Of a stretch of DNA of 64,000 nucleotides, positions 27,183 to 64,000 are shown piece after piece. A program made the position numbers and the translations under genes. The notes under the pieces were generated by a model. That model was not told the DNA's origin. It did not search any database and saw only the letters and a program-made list of their open reading frames with translations. The first letter of the stretch is position 1. Each line of letters starts with the position of its first letter. This DNA comes from Ruditapes philippinarum (Eukaryota): NCBI RefSeq assembly GCF_026571515.1, contig NW_026859211.1, forward strand, positions 124,001 through 188,000, given 5' to 3'.

Positions 27183-27268
<86 letters not shown>

Positions 27269-35679: not shown

Positions 35680-35868
35680 GAGTGGTTTAGGTCGTTGACT
35701 TTAAACCACTTGCCCCTTACCGCTGTGGATTCAAATCTTGACAGGGACTTGAGATTCTTTCATGCAAGGAAGCTATCTAGCTAGCTTATGGAATGTTAGT
35801 GGTTCTGCTCAGATGCCCGTGTGTGCCTGAAATAATGCGTGGAAGCGTTCCTGAGGTCTTCCTCCACC
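35680..35868 (+). mobile_element. tRNA-derived SINE, truncated
   Basis: gagtggtttaggtcgttgactttaaaccacttgcccc...gaggtcttcctccacc matches the family. Confidence 0.8.
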
Positions 35869-39296: not shown

Positions 39297-39394
39297 TCAC
39301 TGTGTCATATCTGAAAGACAAACATTACGCCCCCTGCGAACTAGAATTTAAACTTCCGCGTTCCAAGGTTCGGGTTGAAACGGACTTAAAAAAG
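39297..39394 (+). other. Putative leader exon of copy 4
   Basis: Homologous to 302-399. Donor AAAG|GTGAGG (GT at 39395); acceptor at 39966. Confidence 0.55.
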
Positions 39395-39969
39395 GTGAGG
39401 ATTTTCTACAGCTTTTCAGTATAATATTGCAAAATATATATTATGTTTAAGCACGATGAGTTTACTAGATAAAGTGAGGATAAATAGTTATACGAGCATA
39501 TTTTAATTTTAAGATAAGTTAAATATGAGATAAAATGAAACAACTGAATAATATTAATCGGATCACGTGACTTCTCTTTGTTTTCGTAAAACACAAAATA
39601 AAACCGCTTAACCTTACTTAAAATGGTTTATTTAATTAATACTAAATAAACGTTTACAATAAAAGTTCAATGAAATATCCAAGATGAAAAGCTATTATGT
39701 TAAACTTGATAATGAATTGTACACTAGTTGATAAATACAATGTATGTGACATGTTTAGGCTTGCAAGATCGCATTGAGAAATGCAGATATTTGATTACGC
39801 AGGAACAAACAGTAGATACGGTGTATTTAATGTTAGTCATAAAGGTTTAAACATATTTATTTCCCATGAATATATATAATAATATATATTAATCTTTATT
39901 TCATATTGTTCAGAAGTTTGATATGTCGTCGGCGGAAAATTGATTAGTTATTTATTTTCATTTAAGAAA

Positions 39970-41691: not shown

Positions 41692-42669
41692 ATTATTAAT
41701 ATGTTTTGAATGCGAATATATGCTGAAATGTGACACATTGGATATAATCAGTAGTAGACAGATTATATTATTGGGAACATACTAAATTAAAAATAGACAT
41801 CTTCTATTCAAAGTTGATAAACTCTAGAAATTCAGATTAATGTTTAACAGAAAAATGCATAATGAATGTAGATTATTATTTTTAAATCAGACTAATTATT
41901 AACTTAAGATCATCATTTATATACCATGTTAAAGAACAACCTATTAGTATGACTTTTCAATTAATCATTTAATTGTCCAGTGAATATCCCCGCTTTGTTT
42001 TTAATTGATAAGTCTGCAATGAAGGAATGTTAGCTGTTGTTTTTTTGTGTGTAAATAAAAATATTATGTTAAGTTATACTTTATTATACTAAACAAATGT
42101 GGTTATTCTCTTTCAAATGCCATAATAAAAAGGAATATGAATATTTCAATACGTACATGTGGGCAGAAAAGTGTTTGATTTGTAATAATTACTGCATGAG
42201 TGATCCTTGTTGACTTCATCAGTGATTTTGAAAATGATATAACTATTTGCATTTCACATGGTTTCAGCTGAATATGAACAAAATTGTTGACCATAGTTAT
42301 TTATTTATATGTTACAGACTCTTTACATTTACAATGCTATATTTCATATTGATAAAAATGATAAACAATAGAAGCTTATCTTAATATTTGTGATAGTAAT
42401 TGACATGCTATGTTGTGCTGTTTTTGCAAACAATTACTGAATATAAAATTCATGTTTGTATGATGTATTATGTACTGAGATGAATAAATTTGATTGATTG
42501 GATTCGATTTGATTTGAATTACGTTTACATCCCTGGTTAATCATACAGAGATTTTATCTTTTTCCATTTTGCCGTTTTGGATAGCCTTAGCAATACTGAT
42601 GTAATTGATATTTGGTTAATTAAATTACAAATCTGTGGATGTTTCTTCATTCATTTTTCATCATTAACT

Positions 42670-45529
42670 CGTCGCCCTAATTCCATAATGATGTAAGTCG
42701 TATTTTTACCATTTTGAGAAAATCGACTTCAAAGATTTAACAGGCTATATCTTCACACTTACTCAACAAATTTTAATATAAAAAACATCATAGTGTGCAG
42801 AATTATTTTAACTTTTACACTTTTAGTTACGAAGAAGTTCCTGTAGACAGTTTTTTAAAAAATCAAAATAAAAGAAATGAAAAATCACTGAAAATATATT
42901 TTGTTGACAAAAATACAAGAACCAGAATGATGTAATAAGTTTCAGCAATGTGACCCTAAAATATCATTACATTTAGGAGTTAAAACAGTGTGAAATAATG
43001 ACTATTTTACTGTTTTATACTGAAATTATATTAAATTTAGACGTAACTAGAAATTGAATGCTTTAACAAATAGTCTGGATCCACATTTATTTAGGCACCA
43101 CAGAGCATGTAATGTAATCAGGATCAAAACAGTAAATTTAGTCTTAAAAGTCAATAATAGAAATCCAGACAATGCGGTGAAGTGTGAATAGCCACGAACA
43201 GGCATTTTAAGATTGAAATTGAACTCGGGCTTCATTATCTTATGACCATTTACATGAAATAGTGAGCCTTGCAAATGAACAAAAAAAATATTTATTTACT
43301 GATTTTGTAAAAGTATCACATTGAGTTAAACAAAATGAAATCAAAATTTAGGAACATCGTCATTGTATTGATATTTACCACATTAAATAGCAAAACTTTT
43401 ATCATATGATATGCTATTTTCACATTAACATTGTACACTATAAAATATTTGGAATTCAGATTTACATTTGGTTTCGTTATTATATCATTAATTCATTCCA
43501 AATTCAATTTTGAATACCTGTTACTTGCATACAAACAGCATGTTGAACACAATTTGACTTACAAAACACACAAAAATGTTTGAAAGATGTAACTGCTTCA
43601 ACTTTGAAAAACAACATTAACAATGAGTTCATTTCTCTGTAACATGAAAAAGAATAAACCTATGTATTTTACTTTTCTAAGAACAGCATTACTTAATATT
43701 TTGTTTTTAAAAAAAGAAAAATATGAAATACAACTCAAAGCTCACAAATTTTCAAAGATGCTACAGATCTGGATATGGTGTTTCAATGAACTACTGTACT
43801 TCAATTACTTCAAGTATTTATATATCAAGTGGCATACAACTTCTTTACATACAATAACAATTAAGTATACGTTTGCTATTAATGTTTTTAACTGAACTGT
43901 TTACATCAATAACTCATTCGTATAAAATCAATGGTCAATATCTAAGAGTTTCAGTCAAATATTAATTCTATTTTACTTCAACAAACATTTGATGAAACAA
44001 ATATGACAATTTAAAGATTCCTTAATGTTTTATATGGTCTTAAGACTTTGTAACTTTTTTTCACGAAATCATTTTTTCTACGTTTCAATCAAATGACAAT
44101 TTTTAACTAAGCATATTTTTTTTTCTTTTTAAAAATAGTTTTGGTAATGGATAATTTTCAGATCACAGGTTCGAATCACTTGATAATTAATTACAGGTAG
44201 TATTACATTACGAGTTGGAAGTAGATGTACCAGAATTATTTTTAACTTAGAAACTTAGATTAATTTTGCTTTGCATGTTCCAATTATTTAAGAAATTTTA
44301 GCATAAGATTATGTTGACAAAATGGTATAGACTGACACCCTGTTGATTTATGCAAAATAGCTGAGTAGGTCATTAGGGTGGCATTCTGTTTAATAAGTAT
44401 TTGTTGTGCAAATGACATCTCTTATTCCATTTGTATTCAACGCTAAATGGTGCATCTGAGACAACTCGGTCTCAGCTTTTAAACTTTTGTTATAGGGATA
44501 TTATCAACTTTAACCCACCATATAGGCTTTGACGTTTGGACGTACTGTTTTAAGAACACAAACGAGTGATGTAGGACTGAATACTTCTGCAATTTTAAAA
44601 GTGTTTTGTCTTTCTTCCTATATTACAGTGGGTATTGTTAACCACTGTGGATTGCATAATGCCTCGGACAGCAAAACTTTTGATTTTTTTGTGATCGTTT
44701 TATAAAAGTGCAGAATTTTGAAATTATGAAATTATAAATTATGAAATAAACATGATTAACATAATTTAACATCAGTTATGAGTGGTAAAGTTATATATGT
44801 GTAAATTTTATTCGAATCTCTTAGCACCAGTATGTTAATTTGTCTTATATAGTAAAAGAAAAACATTGTACAAAATGTAACAATGGCAGTAGTATGATTC
44901 CATTTGATGAGTTTTGTTTGTAAGTTAAAAGTATAAACAATCTTATGCAAAACCTGATTGTCCGTATTTAATGGTAACATTGATCAATCAATCATATAAT
45001 CAATCACATATCAAGTTATTAACAGTTGATACTTGTGAATATTGAAAGTTTGTATCAATTTATCCGATTTCCATGCTATCCGAATTTCATAACACAGCAT
45101 GGTGCTTTGAATTTAGCTCAAGGGTTAAGAGTAGTTATTATTTCTTTTTAAGGTTTGAAACAGTTCAATAAAAAATTAATCTATAGATAATTAGATAACA
45201 TCTAAAGCTAAACACTTACATGTTATCAAGCAATATAAAACGTAAAATGTCATTCCTGATACCTTGAAAAATCAGCCATTTTGTCAAAACAGCATCACGT
45301 GACTAGAATCTTAACAAACTATTGGTTCAGAAGTTACGATATTATGGACTGTATTTTTATCACAATTTTTGGACTTATAGCACTCTGACCCATTCAATAT
45401 ATTGTAACAGGCAAGAACCAGAGTGATGTTGTTCTAACCATTAGATAGAGACAAAAATTACGAACATTTTGATACCAAACACTCATTTTTTTCAAAATTG
45501 GAGTTATACACTCTGGAATTAGGGCGACG
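42670..45529. mobile_element. Non-autonomous DNA transposon with 16-bp TIRs and 4-bp TSD (possibly Sola-type)
   Basis: AACT-CGTCGCCCTAATTCCA...TGGAATTAGGGCGACG-AACT. The empty site cattAACTgttgaa is present at ~519-532. Confidence 0.85.
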
Positions 45530-47216
45530 AACTGTTGAATTCTGCTTAAACCGGTGATAAGGGGCCTAGACAATAGCTTGCATAAATTACTTAATTACTG
45601 CACGATATTCACTTCTTTTTGTAAGTTGATTAACATCTAACATGCCCTATCCATCATTTAGTGTCGGACGTTTTAAGCTATATTCTCTTATGTATCTGTA
45701 TTTGTTTTTCTTTTTAATTCACACAAATTGTTTTCAAGTTTAAATAACCAAATCAGTGATAAGCATTATAATATGATGCACTATAATAATCTGTTAAAAG
45801 GACATTATGCCTCAGAAATCATTTCTTTTATTCTTGAGAAAGGCCGAACATGTGTTTAACAATTTCATTATTGATTCGGGCATGTTAGATGTCAAAAAAC
45901 TGAAACAATAAATAAATATCGTGCAGAAATAGTTACCGTCCGTACTAAAAATAGGGCTGTATAGTATTTACAGACCCTTTAAAACTATCAACCGTTACGC
46001 TCTTGTAATTTGAAATGCAGTAGATGAGGGGTTACATGTACAAGTTTATTGAAATTCACTTTTTTAATGTACAAAGGTCAGGTTGATATATTGAAATATC
46101 ACAGAAAATGGGTCCAGATCTGGAGGAGATTCTATTATAAAAACGGCTAATTATTTTTTGAAATATATGCATATAAATATAAAATCAAGAAAAAACCCAA
46201 AAAGATTTAAAATAAATGCAGTATGTTTAAACAATAGTTACATCTTGTTTATCAAGTTTATCAAGTTTATCTTGTTTTGGGACGGAGTTGAATAAATCAA
46301 ACGAAAATTATGAATTATAAAAAAGGCAAATATCTATATTTAATGGCGATTTCCGCAAGTATCTTCAATACATTATTGCAGGTACGAACTGGCTTAGTAA
46401 AACTGACAACATTCAATAATCTTCTAAAAAAGGAAAGAAGGAGCGATCGGTCTCTCTTTGACAGTCTGCTTAAATACTTTGGCGTATGTCTGGCTTATAA
46501 CTATTCAAATGACGTTATCCAATAAAAATTCCATCAGGCTATTCAAACAGACGGTATAAAAAGGGAATCTATAACTTTTTGACTCACAGAACAAGTGACG
46601 TCTAATAGATTTACAGGCACGTGGTTCCCTTTGTGAGGCTGACATTTTTGACAAATGCGCATTTAAACAAAAAAAGAGCCCTAAAAGTGAAATATTTTAT
46701 CCATGTGAACTCAAATTCATGATAAATAATAGTTTGTCAGGCTTTCAATTTAAATATATAATGTTTATATTCAAGGTCAATTAGTGACGAGACTTCTAAG
46801 AATGAATAAATAAATTGCATTATGAATTTTATGTTTTAAATGATATGGTTTTGCCGTGTCATAGATGTCTGATAGTATATATTCCTTGAAATCAACGTGC
46901 ATGTCTTCGTCCCGTAAATGTTCTTTTAGTATATCCTTAAATAGCACTCCCCTTCTATATCTGTTTAGTAACAGCACACGAAGACAGCACGCGCAGTCTA
47001 GCACGGACCATAGGGACTTGAAACACTGTAATCAAATTAAACGCAAACGGTTCTTACCGTATTAACAAAAAAATCCCAAGAAAATTCATGTATTCGCTTT
47101 GTAATAATTACCAAACCATCAATCTGAAAACAACTTTATGCGTTCGTCTGTTTTGAATAGAACAAGAACCCATATAATACTTTGGACATTGATTTTGCTT
47201 TTCGGAATAACTTTAA

Positions 47217-47393
47217 AGATCCTGTATGATTTGTGCTGTGTGTATACCACACTTACAAAAAATTATATATGTATATAATTATGCAAATAAAACAATTTTC
47301 AAACATCCAAGAATTTGTAAAATGTGAACTGCAAATATTTGTGCACATTATATTTAATCAATAAATTACATGCATTTATTTCTTATTGGAAAA
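47217..47393. mobile_element. Truncated copy of the TTAA MITE
   Basis: TTAA-AGATCCTGTATG... collinear with 38244-38433. Confidence 0.8.
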
Positions 47394-49344
47394 AATTAAC
47401 CTGAACTATCGTTTGCTTCTGTTAATGTTTGGCAATTTAGTTTGATGATTATGATAAAGTAATTTGTATGAAAGTCAAATACTACTTTGTTTACATTTTG
47501 CTACTTAAATAACAATTAAAAACAATTTGACATTCATAACTACTTTCTTGAGGTGATAAGCACCTGACTTTCTCTAATTTTATAAACGTTATAAAACCAA
47601 TGTTTGCTATTTTAACAGAAGAAGAGAATATTCCTTTATGAAGTAATGTGCCTTTACCGTTCAGTAAAGAACAGGAAGTAAGGGTGGAAGCATAGCATAA
47701 AAGAGATGGACCGAGTGCCAAAAATGTAGTTGTTTTCTCACAAAAACGTGTTCATTGAAATACACTAAAAAGTATTTATACGTATCATAATAATTATGTA
47801 AATTTCAGAATAGTCTTCCAACAGTCTACATAAAGTCTGTTTTAAAATTCTACTGCCATTTCATGTTTTTATGCTTTCTGCTGTCACTTCTGATAGCTGT
47901 GGCGTCAAAGCGCACACTAACTAGATTGTGTCTCGCCGAAGAAACACGACGTCAGCGATATGTTTCATTAAACGGTCGCACGACGTTGTCAAAGACATAC
48001 GTCACCGACAATAAAATGTCGTAGACTACGACACGTTGTAATTGTGTAAGCATACTACGACATTATAATTGTTGTCTTTTTAGAAAATCAAACTTAATAC
48101 AAACCATATCAAGGATTGAAGCAATGTATAAAAACAGGTATTCATTATCTATATTGGGCTGTTGAAATATTTGATTATATAAAATATAATGTTGAATCCA
48201 GTTATCTTACCATTTTTCCACTTAGTCTCTTTCCATACTTTGATATAGTTAAGTCTGGTTTGTTTTGCTGGTGCGAGTGTACATCATTTGACAATGATTT
48301 GTACTTTTTATATCTCTTTCTAAGTATTTATAAAAAACAAAGCTTTAATACGTGTGTGTGACGCTTAGATCAAGGGAGCTTAACGTCATAATGTACGTGA
48401 CAGACACAGAGAGTTGTTTCCCTTGTATACTAGAATATTCAATCTTACGCGTTTCAAAGTTCAGGTTGAGACAGGTTAAAATAAAGCTAAGACATTTTTT
48501 ATTTTGTCTCCTTCAAATTGTAAATAATATTTTTATGACCTTATGAACGTTTGCTTAACGTTATAATCATTTTTCTCTATTTAGATTTTATAGTCCTACC
48601 TTTCATGTAAATACAAATATAACAATACTAAAAAGTTAAATCATCTAGACTTTGTTCTTTTTTGATACAAAAGAGTTTTATTTATTCAAATTGAAATAGG
48701 ACACTATCTTTTAAAGAATTCATGGAATTATACCTGTAAACCAAGTTACAATAAAAAGTCGCGTAAATCATATTGGTTTAACAATCAATCGATATGTTGA
48801 ATAAGAAGCACATTAGATATAATCGGTTGTTGCCTAAACAAAATTGTTTAAAATCGCTCGCCTTTTAATTCAGTAGACAATGGTTACTCGTAATTTATCA
48901 TATACTTTGATCATATCAAGTTTGTCATGAAAGAGACAAATAAATTGTAGAGTGGATATAGTATATAAAAAGAGGGCTTTTTCCGGCGGTATAAACTCTC
49001 AAATTGGATATCCGAAAAGGTAATGATGTTGCTTTCATGAAACCCCATTGGATCACTCACTTTTAGATCTGATCATCTGGACTAAAATATTCAAGTTATA
49101 ATTATTAAGGTGTTTCTTAATAGCGTATATCAATGTGAAACATTGAATATTTAACATATAAATAACAATGTGGCTGTAACTGTCAGCTAATTTTAACTTT
49201 ATACTATGTTAGTTAGGAAATAGAGATCAATTCTGAGTGCAATGTTGTAGAAATATGCACGGTTTGAGTTCAAATGCGTAGTAATAACAGGCCTTAGTGA
49301 TTAATTACAAAGCATTTGAACAAAAAAACGTGGATTATTATACA

Positions 49345-49695
49345 TTATCACACACCCGTGCCGATTTTGCGACTCCGTAAATATGGTATTGCACGGCCGT
49401 GCATATATTTTGACGTGACGTCATTAGCGTTATACAAACAAAGAGTAAAGACGCGCTAAATGTTAGCGTTATACTATAGGCGCGTCAATGAAAAATTATT
49501 CTTATTTCACTTTAAAAGGTCTTTATTTTGGGTATGTGATAAATAGAATATTAAATTCGTGTAAGTTCATTACTGAATTTATTGCACTCGTTGAATAAAA
49601 TAATATTATGCTCGCCAGAGGCTCGCATAATATAATTTTATTCAACTCGTGCAATAAATTCAGTATTGAACTTACACTCATTTAATATCCTCTAT
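49345..49695. mobile_element. Crypton-like insertion with ~150-bp palindrome
   Basis: Absent from block A. Arms tgtaagttcattactgaatttattgcac..ttgaataaaat and attttattcaa..gtgcaataaattcagtattgaacttaca around gctcgccagaggctcgc. No TSD seen. Confidence 0.65.
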
Positions 49696-50410
49696 ATAAT
49701 GCATGAAGAATTAATATCTATTTCCATTCTAACACGTCATGAAAAAATATAATAATTATTACATAGTTGGACTTTATGTTTGGTGATTAAATTTGTTTTC
49801 GCCTCAGAGTTTCCAATAGAAACGTTCTTTAAAGACTGTTCCAGTGGGTTGAAAAATCTTAAATCTACCGTGTGTAGAATAACAAATATTGAAAACGTTG
49901 ATTAAACTTTGTTTGTTTATTTTATTTCACTTTATATTTTTCAACCAAAATACAATGTAATAATAGTGAAATAAATGTGAAATTTAACTCGTTTGCGACA
50001 TTGAAATAGCGTTCTTGATTCGATTGTGTTTGCACGTGCTGTTTAGCGCTACATTGTGACGTCACGTAAACAAAACTGTAAACCTCTATACAGTGTTATC
50101 GACTGAATTAAAGATATTGGTGTTCGAATTAATTTTCTTAGTTAGACCATTTTCTTTCATTCTAAATAGTTTTCACAACAAAATCCGACAAAAAAATGTT
50201 TTTTTTTTATTTATCAGATTTTCAAACAAAAAGGCGCCGTCAATGTGTCGGTTTAAAAATACACAGAGAGGTAATAAGAACGACGAGTGCATTGTTGTAG
50301 AATAATGAACGCATCCGGCCTTCTTTGTTTATACAGAGAAATTTCCGATAGTGTTAGAATATGAAATTGTTACACCGCTGTCTAATTGAAGATGTCTTTT
50401 TCAGACAAAC

Positions 50411-52129
50411 ATGGATGAATCTCAAAAGATTATTGCTGAAACGAAGCAGAGCCTGGAATTATACTGCCTTCCATGTGATCAAGATGGTTTGAAAGTGTCG
50501 GTTCATGGATATTGTCGAGACTGCAAGGAACACCTCTGCAAAACTTGTTTTGAAAATCATACAAGGCCGAAGCCATGTAGGAATCACATTCTGCTTGATA
50601 TAAACGCCATGCCAGATCAACTAACGACCGTTAATATAAATGAAAAAGCATATTCCGAAAACTGCACCAACCATATGGATAAACCAATGGAGTTCTATTG
50701 TAACAATCACAAAACTACGGCATGCTATGTATGTGTTGCACTCGAACATAAAGAATGTAAAGCAGAATATATTCCTGATATGCCAGGAAACGTATCTGGT
50801 GAGTTCATAGATTTGGACAAAAAGATGGAAGTGCTAGTCAAGAAATGTGAAAGTAACATTATGAAGGCTTCAGCTGCTAAAAAACAACCAGAACAAAGTC
50901 ACGGAAAAGTTGTTGAGGACATACGGCTTTTGAGGAAGGAAATAAACGACCGTTTAGATCAGATTGAATCGGTGTTGATGACAGAAGCTGAAGCTGTTCT
51001 TAACACAGCAAACTACAAATTGGAGAATATTAAGGTTGCTTGCGAAAAATTAGCCGGAAAGGTGAAACGTTTACAGTCATTTCTTAACGCCTTGATGGAG
51101 GAAAGCAAGCTTAATAAGATTTTCACTGAATTGAAAAATGTCGGACCACATTTTATGACACTAGAAAGTGAAGAAATACAGATTGTCAAAGATAATATGG
51201 CATTTGACGACATTCGATTTGATCGTAACGGAAAGCTACTTGAGCAGCTGAAAAGTGAGAACAGCTTTGGAACAATTTCAACATACAGAAAACCATCAGC
51301 AGATACTGAAATATGTGTCAAATATGATAAATCGCTCAACGTGGAATTTCCTTCTGATAAATCGCAAAGTAATGTTGTTGGGATGGCAATGGTTTCTTCC
51401 ACGCGAATGATCATTGCTGATTATAATAACAACAAAATTAAAACAATAGATGTAGAAACTGGAACGCTGGTGTCAGAGAAAACCCTGACTTCAGCACCAC
51501 TCGATGTTACAAAACTTCCAGAAAATAAACTTGGTGTTGCTTTACCTAATGAAAAGTGTATCCAGATAATGTCTTATACCGATACAAGTTTGCCTTTAGA
51601 TCGTCGCATAGATGTGGGAGAAAAGTTTTTTTGTGTAGCTTATTGTCAGGACAAGCTAGTAGTGGGCAGAAATTGTAATCCAGGAAAGCTGGTTATTCTA
51701 GATTTAGACGGACAAATGATACAGGTGTTTGATACTCCTGGATTGTTTGATGGACCTAAAAGGATTGTTATCAGCAGAGATGAGATGTTCATGTATGTAT
51801 CTGATTACTCTCGTAGCAAAGATAGCAAGTGTGTAAAGATAGACTGGGAAGGTAATGTTGTGCAAAGATTTGAGGATCAAGGATGTGAAGGCCCTATAGG
51901 AGTACAAGAGTTGGAAGATGGTACTTTGTTAGTTTGCTTATACTCCAGTCGCAAAATTGTCAGATTGTCGAGCAGCTTCAAAGAATGTAAGATCACTGGA
52001 TTAGAGGACATAGACCTTTCCTATCAACAAATTGTAACATATAGTGAAAGTAATCACAAGTTATATGTTAGTTGTTCTTCTGAGCACGAAAATGTTTTAA
52101 AGCATACAATAGAAGTATTCAAAATGTGA
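50411..52129 (+). CDS. RING-less TRIM-like B-box/coiled-coil/NHL-propeller protein, copy 5, 572 aa
   Basis: Intact ORF after acceptor TCTTTTTCAG|. Zinc ligands retained; N-terminus divergent. Confidence 0.9.
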   Translation: MDESQKIIAETKQSLELYCLPCDQDGLKVSVHGYCRDCKEHLCKTCFENHTRPKPCRNHILLDINAMPDQLTTVNINEKAYSENCTNHMDKPMEFYCNNHKTTACYVCVALEHKECKAEYIPDMPGNVSGEFIDLDKKMEVLVKKCESNIMKASAAKKQPEQSHGKVVEDIRLLRKEINDRLDQIESVLMTEAEAVLNTANYKLENIKVACEKLAGKVKRLQSFLNALMEESKLNKIFTELKNVGPHFMTLESEEIQIVKDNMAFDDIRFDRNGKLLEQLKSENSFGTISTYRKPSADTEICVKYDKSLNVEFPSDKSQSNVVGMAMVSSTRMIIADYNNNKIKTIDVETGTLVSEKTLTSAPLDVTKLPENKLGVALPNEKCIQIMSYTDTSLPLDRRIDVGEKFFCVAYCQDKLVVGRNCNPGKLVILDLDGQMIQVFDTPGLFDGPKRIVISRDEMFMYVSDYSRSKDSKCVKIDWEGNVVQRFEDQGCEGPIGVQELEDGTLLVCLYSSRKIVRLSSSFKECKITGLEDIDLSYQQIVTYSESNHKLYVSCSSEHENVLKHTIEVFKM

Positions 52130-54169
52130 GATGGATAATTGGTATGTTTTAAATGTGAATATATGATGCAATGTGGTAAATTGTATATGATCAATATTAG
52201 ACACATTTTACCATTGGGAAAATACTAAATACAAAAACATATATCGTAATCAAAGTTGAGATGTCTTGGATATATTATAGATATCCATCCAGTTGTTTGA
52301 AAAATGTATAATAATGAAGGAGAATATCTTTTTTTTGAATAATTGATAAATGGTGATCATCATTTATATATCATTTTAAAGAACAACCATTTTTATTACA
52401 TATTTACTTGTCCATTAAATATTTCCTTTTCGTATTTAATTAATACTTCTGCTTCGAAGAATTTAATTGATATTTCTGCTTCGAAGAAGTGTAAAACCTA
52501 TATTTCTTGTCTTTTTTTGTAAATATCATTTTGTTTTATATTTAATTACTAAAAAAACTTAATTTTGCCTTTTTTGATTCCAAGGAGTAAGAATGTTTCA
52601 ATACATACAATAGATTTGTAATAATTACTTAATGAATAACGATGACTTTATCGGTGATTTTGAAAATAGTTTTACTATTTATATGCCACATGGTTTGATA
52701 TCAGCTGTATATGACAGCATTTTTTGACCTTCGATATTTATTATCTTGCAGAATCTTCACATTCTTAATGCTACATTTCATATTGATTGATAAAAAAATC
52801 TTTTTTTAAACAATAGGAGGTTTACATCATTATTTGTATATTATATTATGTATTGTGATTGTAAAATGGCATGCTATTTAGTGCTGTTTTTGCCAATAAT
52901 TACAGCGCATAAAACTCATGTTTGTATGATGTATGATGTACTGAGATGAATAAATTTGATTGATTTGATAAAATCTGAGTGAAATTTCGTTAACATGCCT
53001 GGTTAATAATTCGTTTATTCAATTCAATTGAGTTGTTTACAATAATTAAACATAAACACGTAAATAAAATAATATGTGAAAAATAAAAAAAGTAAATAAG
53101 GGTTTCACAACAATTAAAAGATTAAAAAATTGGATGTTAGTAATTTGTTAAGGTATCAGACACAATTAATTTCACGCCTAATTGCGTTGTAATAGCTAAG
53201 AAATATTATCATAATGATGTGTAGGATTCGCCAATTAAATCTGCATAACAGAGTCTTTACAAATATCTAAACTGATGAAATCTTTAATTAAAGTAATATA
53301 TTAAAGTAACTATAACAAGATCGCATTTGTATTAAAAAATGCTTTGCCACTAAAACAATGTAACAAAAGAAGTATACCCTTTTATTTGTATACATTTGAA
53401 CTTTGCCATAATGCAAGAGGATCTAGTGAATTTTGGGGTCAAGATCATAGTTGAGCATTTCAAATGAAAGACAATGTGCAGATGTGTCTCTATTCATATA
53501 CAAAGGCCATGGTGTAATAATTGATTCAAAATACAATAAGAATTTTGTTATTTACTGTATTATTTAGCTGTATTAAACTTTGAAATGCAGTTGCAGTAAA
53601 ATTCTTAAATGCTATATTTTTATTAATCTTTACCTATTTCTGAAAACATAAAAAAAACATTCATAATTTAAAATCATCATTACATAAATGTTGTAAATAA
53701 TAATTTCCTTATAATGTGCTCAGCTCTTTCATAAATATCCCTGCAAAGCAAACATTACTCTTTAGGTCATGATCTCTAATCATACCTAAAGATAGAATCT
53801 TTGAAAGCAAACATTTCTCTTGCCATTCAAGGCCAGCTGCATGATTATTAGATTAGAACGTGTTTATAAAGTAATAATACAAAGTCGGTAGATCTCACCA
53901 TATGTCGACATAAAGTATTTGAGTTGTAAAAAACATATGTTATGACTTTAATTTATTGTGGATACAATTAATATAAACGTAAAGCTTGACTTTTAATCAG
54001 AGAAAACGGTGATCTACTCTAAACAAGTTTAATATCGATTTCTTTGCGAAATGGGGTAATTAAATAATATGATAAAAACATATCAATAGCTGACGGAAAA
54101 TCAATCTTCCTTTTGAACATTGTAATTGATTGACATTTTTTTTCATTTGAGAAAATATTTATTCCTAAC

Positions 54170-54480
54170 AGAAATGGCTGGTTAAATAAATTGAAAACAT
54201 TAGATACATTAATAAATCAGTGGTACACAGGATACGAAAATAAATCTTATTGTAAAAGTATAATATTGATAGAAAAGAAATTTGAAATTTACAAAAATCT
54301 GCCTCTTGAAACTGGAAATTTGCATAGGTTTCCTTAAGAACATAGAAAATGCATTATTTGCAATCAAAACATAGGGGATGACTTTTATCTTCTATTATAT
54401 TGTCAAAATCTAACTATGAGAAGAAATCTCAATATAACAAAGTTTGAAAGTTTAATGAATACTAACCATTTTATGGTGTG
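54170..54480 (+). mobile_element. Decayed 3' end of a LINE ORF2
   Basis: LPLETGNLHRFP*EHRKCIICNQNIGDDFYLLLYC resembles the LINE C-terminal zinc-knuckle region LPIETGR..R.C..C..GDEFH.LL.C. Confidence 0.6.
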
Positions 54481-54808
54481 GTATGTAAACAATTTGCATA
54501 CTTTTTTGAATTTTGATTTTATTGTGTATTAATAACAATTTTACACAAATATTGTAAACCCAGAACAAACTTCAGACTTTTCTGTATGTTCATTAAGGGC
54601 TCATTAGTGTGATCAACTTTAAAAATTTACCAAATCAAAAATATCAATTTATCTTAAGTAGTGCTATTAATATCATTGTGTTACTTAAATTTCCATAATA
54701 AATATTGATAGATTCAACCAAAAGATGTAAGATGTGGTCCTTTATATTTGGTTAGATATTAATTGTTACACCACAGTCTAATTATATATTGTCTTCTTTT
54801 AGAAAGAA

Positions 54809-55880
54809 ATGGAGAAATGTTGGAAGACCACTATCGACACAAAGCAGAACCCGAAATTAAAGTGTCCTCCATATGATAAAGATGGTTTAGGCGAGTCGGC
54901 TCATGGATATTGTCAAGCATGTTTTCAGTTTGAAGGATCACTTAATGTGAAGTTCCCCTCTGATAAATCACAATGTAATGTCTGTGGGATAGTAATGATA
55001 ACAGCAACACAAATGATCGTTGACTACGGGAATAAGAAAATTAAAATGATTGATGTAAACAAAGGGACTCTGGTATCAGATGTATTTCTATCATCGGGAC
55101 CAGAAGATGTAATAAAACTTCCAGGAAATAACTTGCTGTTGCATTGCGGTTTGAAAACTGTATTCAAATTATTTCTTATACTGACCAAAGTTTGACACAA
55201 GATCTTCGTATAGATATTGGATATACATGTATATGTTATTGTGTAGCTTATTGTCAAGACAAACGAGTGGTAGGTTGTAATTCTAATCCAGGAAAGCTGA
55301 TTATTTTGTATTTACACAGAAATATCATACAGGTGTTTGATGCTCCTGGACTGTTTGATTCGCTTGCAAAGATTGTTATCAGCATTGATGAAAAGTTCAT
55401 GTATGTATCTGATTACTACTCTTTAAGCAAGTTTATGAAGCTGGACTGGCAAGTTAATGATGTACAAATATATGAAGATCCAGGATATTTGTTTGTTTGA
55501 TTGGGTTTTACGTCACACCGACAGAGTATAGGCCATATGGCGACGTTCCAGCTTTACTGGTGGAGGAAGACCTCACGTGCACTTCCGTGCATTATTTCAG
55601 GCACGAACGGGCACCTTAATAGAACCACCGACGTTCCGTAAGCTAGCTGGATAGCTTCATCACATGAAAGAATCCAAAGTCCCTGTCGGGATTCGAACCC
55701 GCAGCGGTGAGGGGCAAGTGGTTTAAAGTCAACGACCTTAACCACTCGGCCACGGACGCCCCAAGATCCAGGATATGAAAGACCAACCGGAATACAAGAG
55801 ATGGAAGATGGTACGTTATTAGTATGCTACAGAGACAGTAGCAATATTATAAGATTGTCGGCCAGCTTCAAGAAAATATA
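54809..55880 (+). pseudogene. TRIM-like pseudogene, copy 6
   Basis: GYCQACFQ joined directly to FEGSLNVKFPSDK (B-box2 and coiled coil deleted), frameshift near 55133, SINE insertion, last blade missing. Confidence 0.88.
55489..55762 (-). mobile_element. Full-length tRNA-derived SINE with 14-bp TSD
   Basis: A box TGGCCGAGTGG, B box GGTTCGAATCC, (CAAA)n tail. TSD AAGATCCAGGATAT at 55475-55488 and 55763-55776. Resembles bivalve V-domain/RUDI-type SINEs (from memory). Confidence 0.92.
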
Positions 55881-58158
55881 TGAGAATTTGATTTATAGAT
55901 ATACAAAACAAGACTAGCTACGAAACAAAGATATTGAACAATTCAGACATGATGGTCAAGGTCAAGTTCATGAAGTTTCATTATGTTTCATATAGCAATG
56001 AGATCTTGACCTTAAGCACGGTCTTACATATAAAATTGAACCTTGATATCAGCTTACCTTGATAATTTGACAAAGTGACCTACTTTCTTGTCCTTTGATG
56101 TACAGTTAGAAATTTGGAATATTTGCACAGTTTTAAATGTTAATTTGAACTTTGATATCATCTGACCTAGATAATTTGATATAGTGACCCACTTTCTTGT
56201 CCTTTGATGCATAAAATTTGGACTATGTGCACAGTTTCATATGCAAAACAGAACATTGAACATTATGGAAATGATTCATACGTTAACAAAACAAGTGTGA
56301 CTAGACCTATCTAATGAAATGAAAAAAACGAAAACAGAAAATTTAATTAATTTTTCTAAAGATTTATTTAAACCTTTTATTTGTTTAACTGCAGAAAACG
56401 TAAACCTGTAGAAAACGTAAAAAATGTCGAGCGTTGCCCCGTTAGTCGGTAGCTCTTTTTAGTTGCTAGCTTTGAAACAGTAAGGATATTGCAGATTTGA
56501 TTTGATTTATGTTATGTGTTGCAAACGTCTGTTTTAAAGAAAAACAACAATAAAAAACAGGCTTATCTTTGGATATCTAATAATGACTGTATATGAAACA
56601 TTTCAGTAAAAAATGGATTGATTTATATACGCCTTAATGTTTTGTCTGCCTATGTCATGTACAAATACAGATACCTCAAGAAAATATAAACCATGTTAGC
56701 AAAGATGTGAGTGGTGGTTTACAGGCTATGGATACAGCATTAACAACCCAGCAATCACAAGAGGTTCAAGCTAACTCTGCTATAGTGGAAATGCCAGGTG
56801 GTGCACCTCTTACCATCAGTGGAGGCCGTTTAGTCCTGGCAAACTGCCCCACTGACAACTGATCCAACCAGTAAGTGTTTGTGAATATTTCATTATGCCC
56901 TCCTTCGAAAATGAGGCGGTATATTGTTATGTTTGTCTCTTCGTCGGTAAACTACATGGCTTTGCACTTCTTATCTTAAAAAAATATTTATCACAAGGTA
57001 TAGGTCATAACTACTATTGATTTTGGGGTCACTAGGTCAAAAGTGAAGGTGACAGGGACATTAAATGTCAGAATGGTTGCCGCTCATTATACTTATGATA
57101 GCTTCCATTCAGTTTCAGGTCATATATTGGTCATTATGTTTCTTTTTTCATAACTAAAAACAATTCCATGTACCCATTTATGGCATGTTTCTATAACAAA
57201 ATTACCTATAATATGAGTTAAAGGCTAGAAAGTCGGTCAAATGTGCCGTGTCTTGTTTCCCTTTGTGATCACCTGTTGTCTTGTCCAACTTATAACCTGC
57301 CTTGAGCTGTCTGTCATTATCTTATCCAGAATTTCTCTTAGCATCATTATATCTTTAACCTCATAGTACATTTTGACAAAATTTTGAAGAAATGATTTTA
57401 GGTGAGGTGTCTGGAGCTTAAAATAAACTTTAAAAATGAAATCTTTAAAAATCTTCTAAGAATATAATGCACAGATCTAAAGATAATGCCTATAGCATAT
57501 CATTATAACCTTTTGGTCCTCTACAAAAGTTATATATAATAAGTAATGCACCTTGGATCAAATCTGGCTGTTCTTTAAGGGTCACTTAGTATGGAAAAAG
57601 CCTTGTATATAAAAACAGATTTACATCATCTTCTCTGAAACTACATATCCTTATGCTTAGATATTTGGTGTGAAGCTTTGCCAAATGAACTCTACAGAAT
57701 TATATGTATCAAGCCGCTTAAATAAAAAATGTTCTGAATCATGGGACCATTTTTTTTAGCTCCACTATTCAACGAAGGGAGAGCTAATGTATCCATCCCG
57801 GCATCCGCGTCACACTTTCTTTGTGTTTTCATCTCCAAGGCTACTGAAGGGAGTGGGTTGAAAGTTCACACACTTACTTTATAGTATAACTGGAAATCAT
57901 TGCATAAGGCACATTACATTGACAGAAATATGGCCCTATTTGAACTTATAAAAAATTCTACATTATCCAAGCTCTTGGGTTACTTTCAAGCACTGAGAAT
58001 AGTCAAGTTTGCTGTCCTACTCAGAACTGACAGCTCTTGTTTCATACTGAGATTAGGAAATGATAAATATTTTATGATTTTCTGCCGATATCATGCAACA
58101 GTTACTGATGAACTTAAGGGATATTTTGGATTATTTTATTTTGGACGCATTCTATGCA

Positions 58159-59082
58159 ATTTATTGTCCCCCGCCTTTTCGAAGAAAAAAGGGGGATATA
58201 GAAATAGGCTCCGTCCATCTGTCCGACCGTCCGTCACACTTTCGTGTCCGGTCCATAACTTTGTCATTTATCAAAGGAATTTGAAATAACTTGGCACAAA
58301 TGTTTGTTATAATAAGACAATGTGTCATACGCAACAACCAGACCCCTACCTTCAGGGTCAATGTAGCTTTTGTTCATTCAAGGTCAACATTGTCTATTTG
58401 AGGGTATATGTCGTGTCTGTTCCATAACTTTCTTATCTTTGTAGGGATTTTGTAAATATTTGCCAGAATTGTTCACAATAATGAAATGATATGTCATGCG
58501 CAACAACCGGTTACCTACCTCCAAGGTCAAGGTCACACTAAGAGGTCAAAGATTTACATAGTCTGTTATAGGGTATATTTTGCGTCCAGTCCATAACTTT
58601 TTCATACATCAATGGATTTTTAAATACTTTGCACAAATAATCACAATAATAAGACGATATGTCAGGCGCAAAACATTGGTCCCTACCTCCAAGGTCACAC
58701 TTAGAGGTCAAAGATTAACATAATCTGCTATAGGGTATATTTTGTGTCTGATCTATAACTTCTTCATAGTTCAAGGGATTTTGAAAAAACTTGGCACAAA
58801 CAATTATAAGACGATATGTCATGCACAACACCAGCACCACAATCTCCAAGGTCAAGGGCACACTTAGAGGTCAAAGCTTAACATTATAGATTTTTAAATT
58901 CTGTGTTTCATTTTATTTCTTTAATAAATTTATTGATGCATTTGCAGATCTAGCATTGATCATAATATTGAACTGAAAGTCCTGAGATCCATACATCAAT
59001 CTTTTGAAATAGCACAATTTTATGCTTTATATAAAACTTCCCTGAGACGGGGAACGTTGGTAACTCTGTTACAAATTCTTGT
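58159..59082 (+). mobile_element. HINE-type element (counterpart of 34729-35660)
   Basis: Near-identical to the block A copy. Confidence 0.7.
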
Positions 59083-59101
59083 GTAAATTGTAAGTGTTTG
59101 T

Positions 59102-59291
59102 GAGTGGTTTAGGTCGTTGACTTCAAACCACTTGCCCCTTACCGCTGTGGATTCAAATCTTGACAGGGACTTGAGATTCTTTCATGCGAGGAAGCTATCT
59201 AGCTAGCTTATGGAATGTTAGTGGTTCTGCTCAGATGCCCGTGTGTGCCTGAAATAATGCGTGGAAGCGTTCCTGAGGTCTTCCTCCACCC
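59102..59291 (+). mobile_element. tRNA-derived SINE, truncated (counterpart of 35680-35868)
   Basis: Near-identical to the block A copy. Confidence 0.8.
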
Positions 59292-62233
59292 GTCACCCCC
59301 AAAAAGTAAATTTTAAGGACATAATGCTTAGCTAGCTTAGATTATCTATCTATATCAATTGATATTTCAAAGCATCTGCCCAAGCAGCCTTAGATTATAT
59401 TTATGCAATAATGTATAACTTCAAAATAATTGTCAAATTGTCAAATTGCATTTCTTATTTCAGCTGGAATGATGTCAATACCTGTCTCAATATATCAAAG
59501 TCTTATGGCATCCCAGCAACAGGGAACACTGGATCTGGGGTCAACTGGTCAGGTGGTGTTCACACAGGCAACTACCAACCAGCAAGTCCAGCAGCCTCAG
59601 ATTATCACACAGCAGCAACTGGAGCAGCTGCAGCAGCAACAAACCCTCCAACAGCATTTAGAGGCTCACCAGGAGATTGTACATGTAGGGGAACCTCTAG
59701 GTGTACAGTTAAATCAACAACATATACAAGGTGCCAGTGGGGATGGATCAGATAGCTTGATAGCTACAGGAACTGTTGCATGTAAAACTGAGACTTCATA
59801 GTTCACAAACTGTTTGGATATTTTAATATGTATTGTATATTTGTATATAAGAGCCAATGTGTTCAAATTATGAAAATGTGACAGAAAGGGAAAATAACAC
59901 CCCCAACTTTGTAATGTTCTGTCATATAAATGTATCTATTGAAATGAAATAAGTCTCTGAGGTTTTAGGTGTTGAGTAAGGGGATATTGATCTTTACTGC
60001 ACTAAATATCTTAAATAGAATTGTTCATCTTTCAGTGTGGACAAGTCCATTCATAAATTATAGGGAAAATTTCCAAATAAGTATTAACTGAATAGTGTAA
60101 AGTGCACAACATGTTGTGTATTCTTATCTTTGTTTGAACTGGTACCAGGTAAGCGTTACATGTATATATGCTGAAAAACTGTACAAAGCTTGCAAGAACG
60201 ACATACACTGCTGGACATTGGAAACGCATCCATTGTTTTTTACCTTTTTTATAAGGAAGGGCGTATTTGATTTTTTTGCAAACTGAAGGACACATGTCTA
60301 TACTTCTTATTTAAAATTGTTACTGTCACGACTCTATTGTTGAGTTTAAGTAAAAAATGTGTGGTAATCCGCATTTACAAAAATCAAAACCGACCTGTTT
60401 TATGAGCATAGTCCCAATCACAGTCATGATCTCACTGGGATTGTTTAAGATCATATCCTTCCTCTACGACGAGGACGTGTCGGGGACGTTGGTGGCGTTT
60501 TGTATAAAACATTTTATATATTATTTCAACTAGGCTTATAAATGAGGCGTTCAGTATCTCGTGTATGACGCATTAAGCTGAATGCTAGAAAGACACCTGA
60601 CTTATTGCAGCAATTGGATTATTATTCCATTCTTGCACTGAGGCTTGTTGAAGTTGTGCTTCATTTTGTCGAGATGGTTTACGTGTATTAATTCTACCGC
60701 CGAAATCGTCCCATACATGCTATATTGGTGACATGTCTGGTGACATCGCTCGCCAGTCTAGCACATTAATTTGATTATATATTTTCATTATCAACACTAT
60801 GTTTAGACCTGACCAATATAAAGCTTAAGTCATCAGCTAATGTTGGTATTTGTCTTTATTCACAATTCCTTTCAACAGCTCCAACCCAATTTTTATTCAA
60901 AACATAGTGGTCCTTTACACAAGTCATATAAATTATCATTGAATTCTGTATATGTAGGTTACTTGAACTTAAGTTAAAAGAATTGAAATCGTGGAGAATC
61001 TCTTTGTCAGTATCTAGAAAGAAGCCAGACCTTATATATATGGTAAATAACATGGCTAAGTGAGTCATACATAAATGCCCTTGGGATAAAATTTACCCAC
61101 ACTTCTGATACTTTTCTAAGTCTTACATAATATAACAATTTGTAATCCTCTTGCCTTTGTATATAAATGTCCCTGGATTCAGATATTGTCCCATTTTGTG
61201 GTCCTGTTTCAATTTATAGAGAACAAAAACGATTGAAACTTAAAACCAAGGAGTTTGTCTATAATATGTTACATAACTTTGCCAAGAGTTAGTCTTATAC
61301 ATGTCATCTTTAATTGTTTTCAAAATAATCAGAATCAAGCTTTATTGACTTTAATACACTTATATTATGCGAAATATTTATTTGCCCATTATTTTGATTT
61401 ATATGTCATGAATGTGACCTATTAATTCGAAATAAACTATTCTATTCTATTCTACAAATCGTGGATCTTGCATAAAAAGTCCAATTAGCTTCTTTGATTT
61501 AGTAATAGATTATTTATAGAGTTTTAGCATGGATGAATATTGAATACCCAACAGGGTACATAGTATATGTTTGTCAAAATTCTTAAATGTATCGGAGATG
61601 TAGATATGTTATCTATGTATCTGAATGTGTAAATAAACTTTTGATTTATTTATTTATTTTATTTATATTTCATTGCATACGATCAAATTGTATGTCAAAG
61701 TTTCAATGACAGGCATGTATATTATGTACATATTAATGTTCCTTAACCAATTACTTCATAATTTCTCAAAATGCTGCAATTTCTCAATGGATTGAGATAG
61801 AGCCAAAAGCTTTCAGCGTTGCTTTCACGTTACCTTAAGGTCGACCTGAGGGCATTTAAGCTTCTCACTAGTCCAAAATTTTCGTGTAGATGAGGGGGTC
61901 AGAAGATCCCTTTCAAACCCCCCAAGCAGATGCTCTTGTACCCCTTTTTATCTATTTGATAGCGGATGGCGCCGAAAAACTGACTACTTTTTTTACAAGT
62001 ATTTGGGGTCTAAATAGGTATTTTTTTCCACTATTTGAGGCCTCAAAGGGGTGGTGAAAAGACGTCTATATGAAGTAACGGTTATTATTTATAATTTAAA
62101 TGATGACACACTTTGTTTTAATTAATCTTTTTGTAAACATTACAAAACATGTTTATTTTTAACATGAACAGCAGTTTTTTATGAAACATTGTACTTAAAA
62201 ATCTATCTAAATTTGCTTTCAAGGGAGATAATG

Positions 62234-62328
62234 TCACTGTCATATTTGAAAGACAACATTACGCCCCCTGCGAACTAGAATTTAAACTTCCGCGTTCCAA
62301 GGTTCGGGTTGAAACGGACTTAAAAAAG
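62234..62328 (+). other. Putative leader exon of copy 7
   Basis: Homologous to 39297-39394. GT at 62329; acceptor at 62921. Confidence 0.55.
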
Positions 62329-62924
62329 GTGAGGATTTTCTACAGCTTTTCAGTATAATATTGCAAAATATATATGTTTAAGCAGGATGAGTTTACTAGA
62401 TAAAGTGGGGATAAATAGTTATACGAGCATTATTTTAATTTTAAGATAAGTTATATGTGAGATATAGTGAAACAACTGAATAATATAAATCGGATCACGT
62501 GACTTCTCTTTGTTTTCGTAAAACACAAAACAAAACCGCTTTACCTTTAGTTAAATTTAATTAATACTAAATAAACGTTTACAATAAAAGTTCAATGAAA
62601 TATTCAAGATGAAAAACTATAAAGTTAAACTTAATAATAAATGTGACACTAGTTAGCTATGTGACACTAGCTAGCTGATAAATATGGGACGTGTTTAAGC
62701 ATGCAAACTAAATTCTTTCAAGATCGCATTGAGAAATGCATATTGATATATTGGATTACAAACAGTTGATACGATGTATTTTATGTAAGTCATAAAGGTT
62801 TAAACATATTCATTTCCCATGAATATATATAGTAATAAATATTTATCTTTTTTTTTCATATTGTTCAGAACTTTGATATGTCGTCGGCGGAAAATTGATT
62901 AGTAATTTATTTCCATTTAAGAAA

Positions 62925-64000
62925 ATGGAGGTATCTGGAAAGGTAACTTCGACATCAAAGACGAACTTTAACCTCTACTGTATTACGTGTGATACAGATG
63001 GATTAAAGGAGCCAGCTCACGGATTTTGTCAAGACTGCCAAGAACATCTTTGCAAAAGTTGCCTTCAACATCATAGAAGGTCAAGGCTTTCTAGAAACCA
63101 CGTATTGCTTGATAAAGACGCAATGCCAACACAACAAACGACCATTGACGACGTAAATGCAGAAGTAATTACGGACAACTGTACCAACCATAGGGATAAA
63201 CAACTGGAGTTCTATTGTAACAATCACAAAACTGTAGCATGTTATGTCTGTGTTACACTTGAACACAAACAATGCAAAGTTGATTATATTCCTGATGTTT
63301 CAGGTAACATATCTGGCGACTTGATAGATTTGAACAAAAAGATGAAAAATTTAGTCAAGAAATGTGAAAATAACATTATGAAGGCTTCAGCTGCTACAAA
63401 GCAACTAGAACAAAGTCGTGGAAAAGTTGTTGAAGACATACGACTCTTGAGAAAAGAAATAAACGATCGGTTAGATCAGATGGAATCTATGATGATAAAA
63501 GAAGCTGAAGCTGTTGTTAACACAGCAACCTACAAACACAAGAATATCACAGTTGCTTGTGAAAAAATAGCCGAGGATGTGAAACGTTCACAGTCATTTC
63601 TTAATGCCTTGAAGGAAGCAAACAAGAATAATAAGCTTTTCATTGAATTGAAAAATGTCAGACCTCGTTTGATGACACTGGAAAGTGAGGAAATACAGAC
63701 TGTTAAAGAGAACATGACATATGACGACATTCAGTTTGACCGGAACGAAAAGCTGCTTGATCAACTGAAAAGTGAGACAATCTTTGGAACAATTTCCACA
63801 TACAGAAAATCATCAACAGATATTGAAATATGTGTCAAATATGAAAGATCGCTCAACGTGACATTTCCTTCTGATGAAGAACAAAGTGATGTTTTTGGGA
63901 TGGTAACGATTTCTGCTTCACACATGATCTTAGCTGACTACGGAAATAAAAAAATTAAAATGATAGATGTAGACACAGGAACGCTGGTGTCTGAGAAGAC
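62925..64000 (+). CDS. RING-less TRIM-like protein, copy 7 (5' part, runs off the window; not in the ORF track)
   Basis: Manually translated open frame MEVSGKVTST...ADYGNKKIKMIDVDTGTLVSEK with no stop to the window end. Confidence 0.9.
   Translation, partial: MEVSGKVTSTSKTNFNLYCITCDTDGLKEPAHGFCQDCQEHLCKSCLQHHRRSRLSRNHVLLDKDAMPTQQTTIDDVNAEVITDNCTNHRDKQLEFYCNNHKTVACYVCVTLEHKQCKVDYIPDVSGNISGDLIDLNKKMKNLVKKCENNIMKASAATKQLEQSRGKVVEDIRLLRKEINDRLDQMESMMIKEAEAVVNTATYKHKNITVACEKIAEDVKRSQSFLNALKEANKNNKLFIELKNVRPRLMTLESEEIQTVKENMTYDDIQFDRNEKLLDQLKSETIFGTISTYRKSSTDIEICVKYERSLNVTFPSDEEQSDVFGMVTISASHMILADYGNKKIKMIDVDTGTLVSEK

What the first reader, a model, noticed from the sequence alone, without database searches (positions are those of the whole stretch)
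62925..64000. Copy 7 is a patchwork: sequence exchange shuffles segments among paralogues
Seen: the upstream flank and N-terminus are copy 4/1 type (MEVSGKVTSTSKTNFNLYCITC; NTATYK as in copy 4; the extra Asp in TTIDDVN as in copy 1). However, 63639-63681 (FIELKNVRPRLMTLE) differs by one base from copy 2 (17741-17783) and is unlike copies 1 and 4. QSDVFGMV and EPAHGF are also copy-2 type. Inference: gene conversion or unequal crossover recombines modules, which is easy in a single-exon CDS and would generate new receptor variants.
Basis: partly seen in the sequence, partly recalled or inferred. Interest (0 to 1): 0.7.

Follow-up and report, generated by a model that had tools for sequence, protein, structure and literature searches.

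The report
Clam TRIM-like gene is a mosaic
One gene in a row of near-copies in a clam matches its nearest twin in its front third and flanking DNA but not in its back two-thirds, so DNA has likely been swapped among copies, remixing the predicted binding end of a protein that may serve immunity, a strategy already known from other immune gene families.

Summary
It is a RING-less B-box/coiled-coil/NHL-like propeller gene (588 aa) in a ~23-kb tandem duplicate whose positional twin is copy 4. Copy 7 vs copy 4 differ by 6.8% upstream, 4.0% in CDS 1-600, 15.2% in CDS 601-1722, 22% just past the stop and 7.3% further down. Copy 7 has 10 of 10 derived states of the copy-1/4 clade before CDS 640, but 3 of 18 after. 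One-tree simulations fail (0 of 170; PHI 0 of 1000). The 43-bp match alone is commonplace (660 of 1000 simulations) and is shared with other paralogues. Contigs from other runs bridge the switch, arguing against an assembly chimera there. The neighbouring copy-5 type stays 1-3% conserved over the same region: a Type I/Type II contrast as in plant resistance genes. Variation concentrates on one predicted propeller face, dN/dS 0.81 (not above 1). Immune role and somatic exchange are untested. This scan noted the same in a mussel. New member of a known kind.

The parts
62925..64000 (+). Copy 7 CDS, first 358 of 588 codons (whole CDS = L001:2926-4692, running 691 bases past the window): two B-boxes, coiled coil, six-bladed NHL-like propeller, no RING
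60000..62924 (+). Upstream flank, copy-4 type (6.8% from copy 4's flank; 4.5-4.9% from that of the copy on C8923)
62925..63560 (+). 5' segment (CDS 1-636) nested in the copy 1/4/C8923/C13462b clade; 10 of 10 clade-derived states present
63561..63622 (+). Switch interval (CDS 637-698) between the last copy-4-type and first non-clade diagnostic site; bridged by a 189-base contig of run X1
63623..63713 (+).
63828..64000 (+). Start of the propeller (residue 302 on), 14-18% from every paralogue tested over CDS 901-1722 of the copy-4/7 type
39970..41691 (+). Copy 4, positional twin of copy 7 in the tandem duplicate
1470..3212 (+). Copy 1, same 5' clade
17030..18772 (+). Copy 2, proposed donor; not singled out by the tests
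50411..52129 (+). Copy 5, conserved type: 1.2% and 2.9% from its counterparts on C13462 and C9757 over CDS 901-1722; internal control
24498..47393 (+). First ~23-kb unit (copy 3 + copy 4)
47395..64000 (+). Second unit (copy 5, fragment 6, copy 7), intergenic divergence from the first 6.3-7.3%, homogeneous (p=0.66)

Best explanation
Copy 7 joins a copy-4-type upstream flank and B-box/coiled-coil front to a differently descended back part, likely through repeated germline homologous exchange (gene conversion and unequal crossover) among paralogues and deeply diverged alleles, which would put long-lived variants of the predicted propeller binding face onto a shared scaffold. Shown: the position-dependent change in ancestry, the low-high-low divergence profile against copy 4, the conserved copy-5 control, and the switch region in other runs' contigs. 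Inferred: that the mechanism is meiotic conversion or crossover, that diverged propellers persist because selection favours variety, and that the proteins recognise something (immune role about 0.4). Direction is not fixed: import of an old propeller block and homogenisation of everything except the propeller both remain possible.
For: Copy 7 vs copy 4: 179/2647 upstream, 24/597 CDS 1-600, 170/1121 CDS 601-1722, 76/344 just past the stop, 194/2662 distal; non-coding 3' block vs flanks Fisher p=9e-18. Same profile against the C13462c unit (15.7% and 23.5% inside, 8.4% distal). Clade-derived states 10 of 10 before CDS 640, 3 of 18 after (Fisher 2e-5 with a cut chosen after viewing; cut-free rank test p=0.001). 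PHI 0 of 1000 permutations, about 10 SD below their mean, while 12 one-tree simulations gave z from -2.8 to 1.3. Four segment trees beat one topology with free branch lengths per segment by 82.7 lnL; null mean 5.4, max 36.7, 0 of 170. Synonymous distance of 13 close copies to the C5393/C2447 outgroup falls from 0.75 to 0.28 in the first half of the propeller, while within the 5' clade it rises from 0.095 to 0.29 along the gene. Copy-5-type genes in the same units differ by 1.2% and 2.9% over CDS 901-1722. X1 contig over CDS 553-741 has 2 differences where every assembly paralogue has 19 or more; X2 over CDS 883-1085 has 0 where paralogues have 31 or more. Database protein P0012 from another source alternates copy-7-like and copy-4/C8923-like blocks. 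19 of 24 most variable sites lie in the loops of one predicted face, which are 78 of 574 codons.
Against: At strictly four-fold sites the 5'/3' contrast for copy 7 vs copy 4 is not significant (7/65 vs 18/100, p=0.27; vs copy 1 p=0.089; vs C8923 p=0.038; vs C13462b p=0.0066). The copy 7-C7288 and copy 7-copy 2 fragments lose global significance at third positions. No paralogue in the assembly is a close donor for the propeller (nearest 11-17% per 150-base window from CDS 901 on). dN/dS on the variable face is 0.81 (0.60-1.07), not above 1. The assembly has error-rich copies nearby (copy 3, c0). Only contigs were available, the bridging one at depth 2.8; none spans the gene, and linkage of CDS 1-553 and of the part after 1277 is unconfirmed. 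P0012 could itself be an assembly chimera.
Confidence: 0.8

Rival explanations
1. Mostly allelic: copies 4 and 7 are two ancient, balanced alleles of one hyper-polymorphic locus, scrambled by ordinary recombination between alleles and then placed in tandem by one unequal crossover; exchange between true paralogues is rare.
For: Intergenic divergence between the two units is uniform at 6.3-7.3% (p=0.66), the same as between copy 5's upstream flank and its counterparts on other contigs (6.3%, 8.0%), as expected of one recent duplication at allele-level divergence. Other runs carry variant haplotypes, e.g. six clustered differences at CDS 776-789 in X1, four of them the family majority state.
Against: The CDS 565-845 likeness to C7288/C13339 (21% diverged overall) and the propeller likeness to C5393/C2447 (30% overall) need exchange between distinct subfamilies at some time.
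Confidence: 0.3
2. No exchange: one tree, shared states are ancestral, and the propeller simply evolves fast in these lineages.
For: Variable loops sit on one face. Four-fold contrast for copy 7 vs copy 4 is not significant.
Against: Non-coding DNA past the stop is 22% diverged against 7% flanks; derived states segregate by position; topology conflict survives free branch lengths per segment (0 of 170); synonymous distance to the outgroup drops in the propeller.
Confidence: 0.05
3. Assembly or polishing chimera: copy 7 is a consensus of reads from several paralogues.
For: Copy 3 shows 112 indel events in 1.7 kb against copy 5 and c0 34-42, typical of unpolished long reads (interpretation from own knowledge); the contig ends 5.4 kb after copy 7.
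Against: Copy 7 has an intact 588-codon frame; contigs from runs of several studies match it over CDS 553-741, 712-1179, 883-1085, 953-1134 and 818-1277 with 0-6 differences; diagnostic sites across the switch (636, 654, 673, 685, 699) lie under 31 bases apart, so overlapping words phase them.
Confidence: 0.08
4. Somatic exchange in immune cells makes new variants within an animal.
For: None here; haplotype variety among runs is equally explained by germline polymorphism.
Against: The mosaic sits in a genome assembly, carries 28 private substitutions spread over the gene and recurs in other runs, as an inherited, old haplotype would.
Confidence: 0.02

Closest known systems
Zebrafish NLR-B30.2 family (10.1101/027151; passages read)
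   Same: N-terminal part homogeneous within groups, C-terminal putative recognition domain showing low synonymous distance across groups, read by the authors as gene conversion; here synonymous distance to the outgroup is 0.75 in the front and 0.28 in the first propeller half.
   Different: Different fold (B-box/coiled-coil/propeller, not NACHT/LRR/B30.2); one coding exon; positive selection is reported there but not shown here.
Plant Type I and Type II resistance genes (definition in PMC4161772; passages read)
   Same: Chimeric, evenly related copies that lose allelic relationships (copy-4/7 type) interleaved with conserved, non-recombining copies (copy-5 type).
   Different: Resistance function is shown for plant NLRs and untested here; only three readable copy-5-type genes from one assembly were compared.
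Teleost finTRIMs (PMC2657112; passages read)
   Same: Expanded TRIM-type family with a variable C-terminal domain and GARD-detected recombination breakpoints.
   Different: finTRIMs have RING and B30.2; these have no RING in the ORF and an NHL-like propeller.
Sea urchin Sp185/333 (PMC5103432; passages read)
   Same: Clustered invertebrate genes in segmental duplications with mosaic blocks inside one long exon, attributed to recombination and conversion.
   Different: No discrete presence/absence elements or flanking short tandem repeats here; immune induction is not shown.
TRIM-NHL proteins (Mei-P26, TRIM2, TRIM3, TRIM71, Brat, Thin)
   Same: B-boxes, long coiled coil and six-bladed propeller; best fold matches Mei-P26 NHL (TM 0.78 on target) and TRIM2 NHL (0.80-0.81).
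   Different: About 15% identity; no RING found; a large, fast-changing multi-copy family (77 scored matches, a lower bound) rather than few conserved genes.

Membership tests
Mosaic gene by sequence exchange | Different segments support incompatible trees beyond one-tree expectation | tested here: met
   PHI 0 of 1000; 0 of 170 simulations with free segment branch lengths; 10/10 vs 3/18 derived states
Mosaic gene by sequence exchange | Signal present at sites not under protein selection | tested here: met
   Non-coding 3' block 76/341 vs flanks 373/5309; 35 of 153 pairs keep globally significant fragments at third positions; four-fold test for copy 7 vs copy 4 alone not significant
Mosaic gene by sequence exchange | Identified donor with near-identical tract (copy 2) | tested here: not met
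   2 sites exclusive to copies 7 and 2; tract states shared with C13339/C7288, c0, copy-5 type; no third-position fragment with copy 2
Mosaic gene by sequence exchange | Junction exists in real molecules | tested here: inconclusive
   Switch bridged by one X1 contig at depth 2.8, partly by X2, X4, X9 contigs; no long read spans the gene
TRIM-NHL proteins | One or two B-boxes followed by a coiled coil | tested here: met
   PF22586 and PF00643 at or above cut-off in copy 7; helix 130-231; profile match to TIF1-beta B-box/coiled coil E=3e-26
TRIM-NHL proteins | C-terminal six-bladed NHL propeller | tested here: met
   Model pLDDT 85; Foldseek Mei-P26 and TRIM2 NHL, TM 0.78-0.81 on target; Pfam NHL passes cut-off only in copy 1 of the five scanned, and copy 7 was scanned only to residue 358
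TRIM (RBCC) E3 ligases | N-terminal RING finger | tested here: not met
   No RING in Pfam scans of five ORFs; a recalled RING pattern found nothing in six frames of the window and three adjoining stretches. An acceptor-like AG lies 3-4 bases before the ATG in all five copies, so an upstream exon is not excluded
Diversified immune receptor repertoire | Positive selection on the binding surface | tested here: inconclusive
   dN/dS 0.81 (0.60-1.07) in d-a/b-c loops vs 0.29 opposite loops and 0.38 strands; 19 of 24 hypervariable sites there; loop faces assigned from secondary structure by recalled convention
Diversified immune receptor repertoire | Ligand binding or induction by infection | not testable with these tools
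   Only contigs were laid; they cannot show level or strand
Plant-style Type I / Type II dichotomy | Chimeric class beside a conserved class in the same cluster | tested here: met
   CDS 901-1722: copy-5 type 1.2% and 2.9%; copy-4/7 type 10.8-18.4% in 11 pairs. Copy 3 (15.6% from copy 5) set aside as error-rich
Plant-style Type I / Type II dichotomy | Pattern holds across genotypes of the species | not tested
   One assembly plus short contigs only

The most novel reading that the evidence does not exclude
Bivalve RING-less TRIM-NHL-like genes are a germline, recombination-driven repertoire of intracellular sensors organised like plant Type I/Type II resistance genes: in each tandem unit one gene stays fixed while its neighbour keeps a common promoter and B-box/coiled-coil scaffold and trades long-lived propeller faces across the family, so that individuals carry different chimeric sets.
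Probability: 0.3. Interest if true: 0.65.

Novelty: new member of a known kind. Interest (0 to 1): 0.4.

Why it matters
The mechanism is familiar, but eight searches of the paper library (listings and abstract starts only) showed no description of it for molluscan B-box/propeller genes. It marks the copy-4/7 type as the fast-remixing class of a very large unstudied family in a farmed clam, with a conserved neighbour as control, which gives a concrete target for population long-read typing and infection-association tests. It also warns that orthology, allele calls and single-tree selection tests are unreliable for these genes.

Tried and rejected
Copy 2 as donor: rejected. EPAHGF and the extra Asp as modules: single widely shared changes. 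The 43-bp match as proof by itself: 660 of 1000 under one tree. AU tests between segment trees all rejected the other segments' trees but compare each segment with its own best tree, so the calibrated test was used instead. Copies c0 and 3 were left out of the tree, PHI and dN/dS analyses as error-rich; searches used 15, one search used 12, one search used 13 (15 for the outgroup contrast) and one search used 18 of the 21 aligned copies; only about 20 of the 77 matches were fetched, the closest ones. Codon-model tests of positive selection (PAML, HyPhy), GENECONV, RDP and GARD were not available; home-written equivalents were used, and the fragment test does not model regional rate differences. 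The RNA run X16 has no contig over CDS 861-1180; that gap is no evidence either way, and expression of copy 7 itself is not shown (X4 and X6 cover that part but are only guessed to be RNA). Both read tables were cut (237 and 235 pieces not shown). Supplements of the papers were not read; none bears on a claim here.

Full report
Setting. The window is G000:C7698:124001-188000 of a 1.41-Gb assembly; the nearest named homologues are labelled Ruditapes philippinarum (66-78% identity) and then Mercenaria mercenaria (54% and below). It holds four intact ORFs, a fifth cut by the window end (copy 7), an error-rich copy 3 and a fragment 6. Copy 7 continues to 588 codons. The model has two B-boxes, a 100-residue helix, a second helix at 235-262 and a six-bladed propeller from 302 that matches NHL domains of Mei-P26 and TRIM2. 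No RING was found. The genome gave 77 scored matches, a lower bound; 21 close copies were aligned.

Observation. The bases are as described, but the markers are weak. N-terminal identity of copies 1, 4 and 7 against copy 2 carries no topological information, and the quartet count 36/17/12 mostly fits one tree with copy 7 outside copies 1 and 4. A 43-base window with at most one mismatch to copy 2 appeared in 660 of 1000 one-tree simulations; with the added condition of eight or more mismatches to copy 4, in 13 of 1000. EPAHGF is one base and the extra Asp is in 9 of 20 other copies. FIELKNVRP is shared with C13339, C7288 and c0, a further copy 12 kb upstream of the window. Only two sites are exclusive to copies 7 and 2.

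The mosaic is real. Copies 4 and 7 occupy matching places in two ~23-kb tandem units whose intergenic DNA differs by a uniform 6.3-7.3%. Against that background copy 7 differs from copy 4 by 4.0% in CDS 1-600, 15.2% in CDS 601-1722 and 22% in the non-coding bases just past the stop, then returns to 7.3% (Fisher p=9e-18 for the non-coding block). Protein selection cannot raise non-coding divergence threefold. Copy 7 carries 10 of 10 derived states of the clade of copies 1, 4, C8923 and C13462b before CDS 640 and 3 of 18 after. It sits inside that clade in the CDS 1-600 tree (support 92) and outside the clade plus C3859 in the 601-960 tree (support 92). PHI is below all 1000 permutations, about ten standard deviations out, while 12 one-tree simulations gave z of -2.8 to 1.3. 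Allowing each of four segments its own tree gains 82.7 log-likelihood units over one topology with free branch lengths; none of 170 simulations reached that. Against: the strict four-fold contrast for copy 7 vs copy 4 is not significant (p=0.27), and the middle tract loses global significance at third positions.

A family-wide pattern. High-identity stretches among the 5' clade begin at or near the start codon and end at different points between CDS 490 and 1090. Synonymous distance inside the clade rises from 0.095 to 0.29 along the gene, while distance to the C5393/C2447 outgroup falls from 0.75 to 0.28 in the first propeller half; the latter could be one old event. The copy-5 type in the same units behaves conventionally: 1.2% and 2.9% over CDS 901-1722 with upstream flanks at 6-8%, whereas 11 pairs of the copy-4/7 type differ there by 10.8-18.4%. 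That is the contrast defined for plant Type I and Type II resistance genes (PMC4161772, passages), and the domain-wise pattern resembles zebrafish NLR-B30.2 genes (10.1101/027151, passages).

Artefact check. The assembly is uneven: copy 3 has 112 indel events against copy 5 and c0 has 34-42. For copy 7, contigs of other public runs match CDS 553-741 with 2 differences (X1; every assembly paralogue has 19 or more), 712-1179 with 6 (X1), 883-1085 with 0 (X2; paralogues 31 or more), 953-1134 with 0 (X4), 818-1277 with 4 (X5) and 869-1134 with 7 (X6). The first bridges the switch, at depth 2.8 only. No piece spans the gene, so linkage of the first 550 and last 450 bases is unconfirmed. X1's six differences fall within 14 bases, four of them the family majority state, suggesting a short tract that differs between haplotypes. 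P0012, from another source, has copy-7-like residues 201-250 and 376-465 interleaved with copy-1/4/C8923-like blocks, though it could be a chimera of its own assembly.

Mechanism. Best reading (0.8): germline homologous exchange among paralogues and diverged alleles. The single coding exon and 80-95% identity give long targets (inference). Whether an old propeller block was imported or the rest was homogenised is not resolved; the uniform intergenic divergence fits one recent duplication of two already diverged haplotypes, which is the allelic rival (0.3, overlapping the best reading). The outcome is the same: a shared scaffold with remixed propellers. Of the 24 sites with six or more residues among 13 copies, 19 lie in the loops of one face (78 of 574 codons); dN/dS there is 0.81 (0.60-1.07) against 0.29 and 0.38 elsewhere in the propeller, so relaxed or diversifying evolution is shown but not positive selection. 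That this face binds ligands in NHL proteins is recalled knowledge. No evidence bears on ligand, immune induction or somatic exchange.

Novelty. Exchange among clustered paralogues is known from finTRIMs (PMC2657112, passages), Sp185/333 (PMC5103432, passages), NLR-B30.2 and plant resistance genes. Eight library searches, read as listings, showed no such report for molluscan B-box/propeller genes; subscription journals are mostly not covered. This scan noted the family several times in this genome and mosaicism in a mussel array; those are unchecked notes, not support. Verdict: new member of a known kind, interest 0.4.

Noticed in passing
window 28611-30305 (copy 3) and L040:8158-9913 (c0, G000:C7698:112158 on): 112 and 34-42 mostly 1-2-base indel events against intact paralogues, evenly spread; more like unpolished long-read error than decay, so these may be intact genes rather than pseudogenes.
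   Followed up: partly
window 54809-55875 (copy 6): Fragment joining codons 1-38 to about 301-493, then a ~280-base gap before codons 489-525; a similar stretch lies on C9757 (126966-128042, 84%), so the deletion predates that duplication.
   Followed up: partly
L001:4645-4692: Copy 7 ends in a 14-residue tail absent from most relatives, which stop near residue 574-580; an X2 contig differs at 4650 and 4652.
   Followed up: no
window 62885-62924 and the same place in copies 1, 2, 4, 5: Pyrimidine-rich stretch and AG 3-4 bases before the ATG, like a splice acceptor; an upstream exon probably exists.
   Followed up: partly
G000:C13462:26415-30243 (between L018 and L023): A ~3.8-kb insertion splits the copy that matches copy 7 by its downstream flank.
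   Followed up: no
L002 and L028 (G000:C8923:62600-67458, minus strand): Upstream flank 4.5-4.9% from copy 7's, the closest of all, but homology ends at the end of the CDS; possibly the other haplotype with a different 3' side.
   Followed up: partly
L001:8741-9700 (window-equivalent 68741-69699): Matches the start of both units (24162-25099 and 47395-48000), so a third unit probably begins just before the contig ends.
   Followed up: partly
window 20416-21200, 35092-35462, 58474-58884, 15598-16165, 27185-27260: Tandem arrays of period about 157-166 (three places), 29-30, and an (AT)38 run.
   Followed up: no
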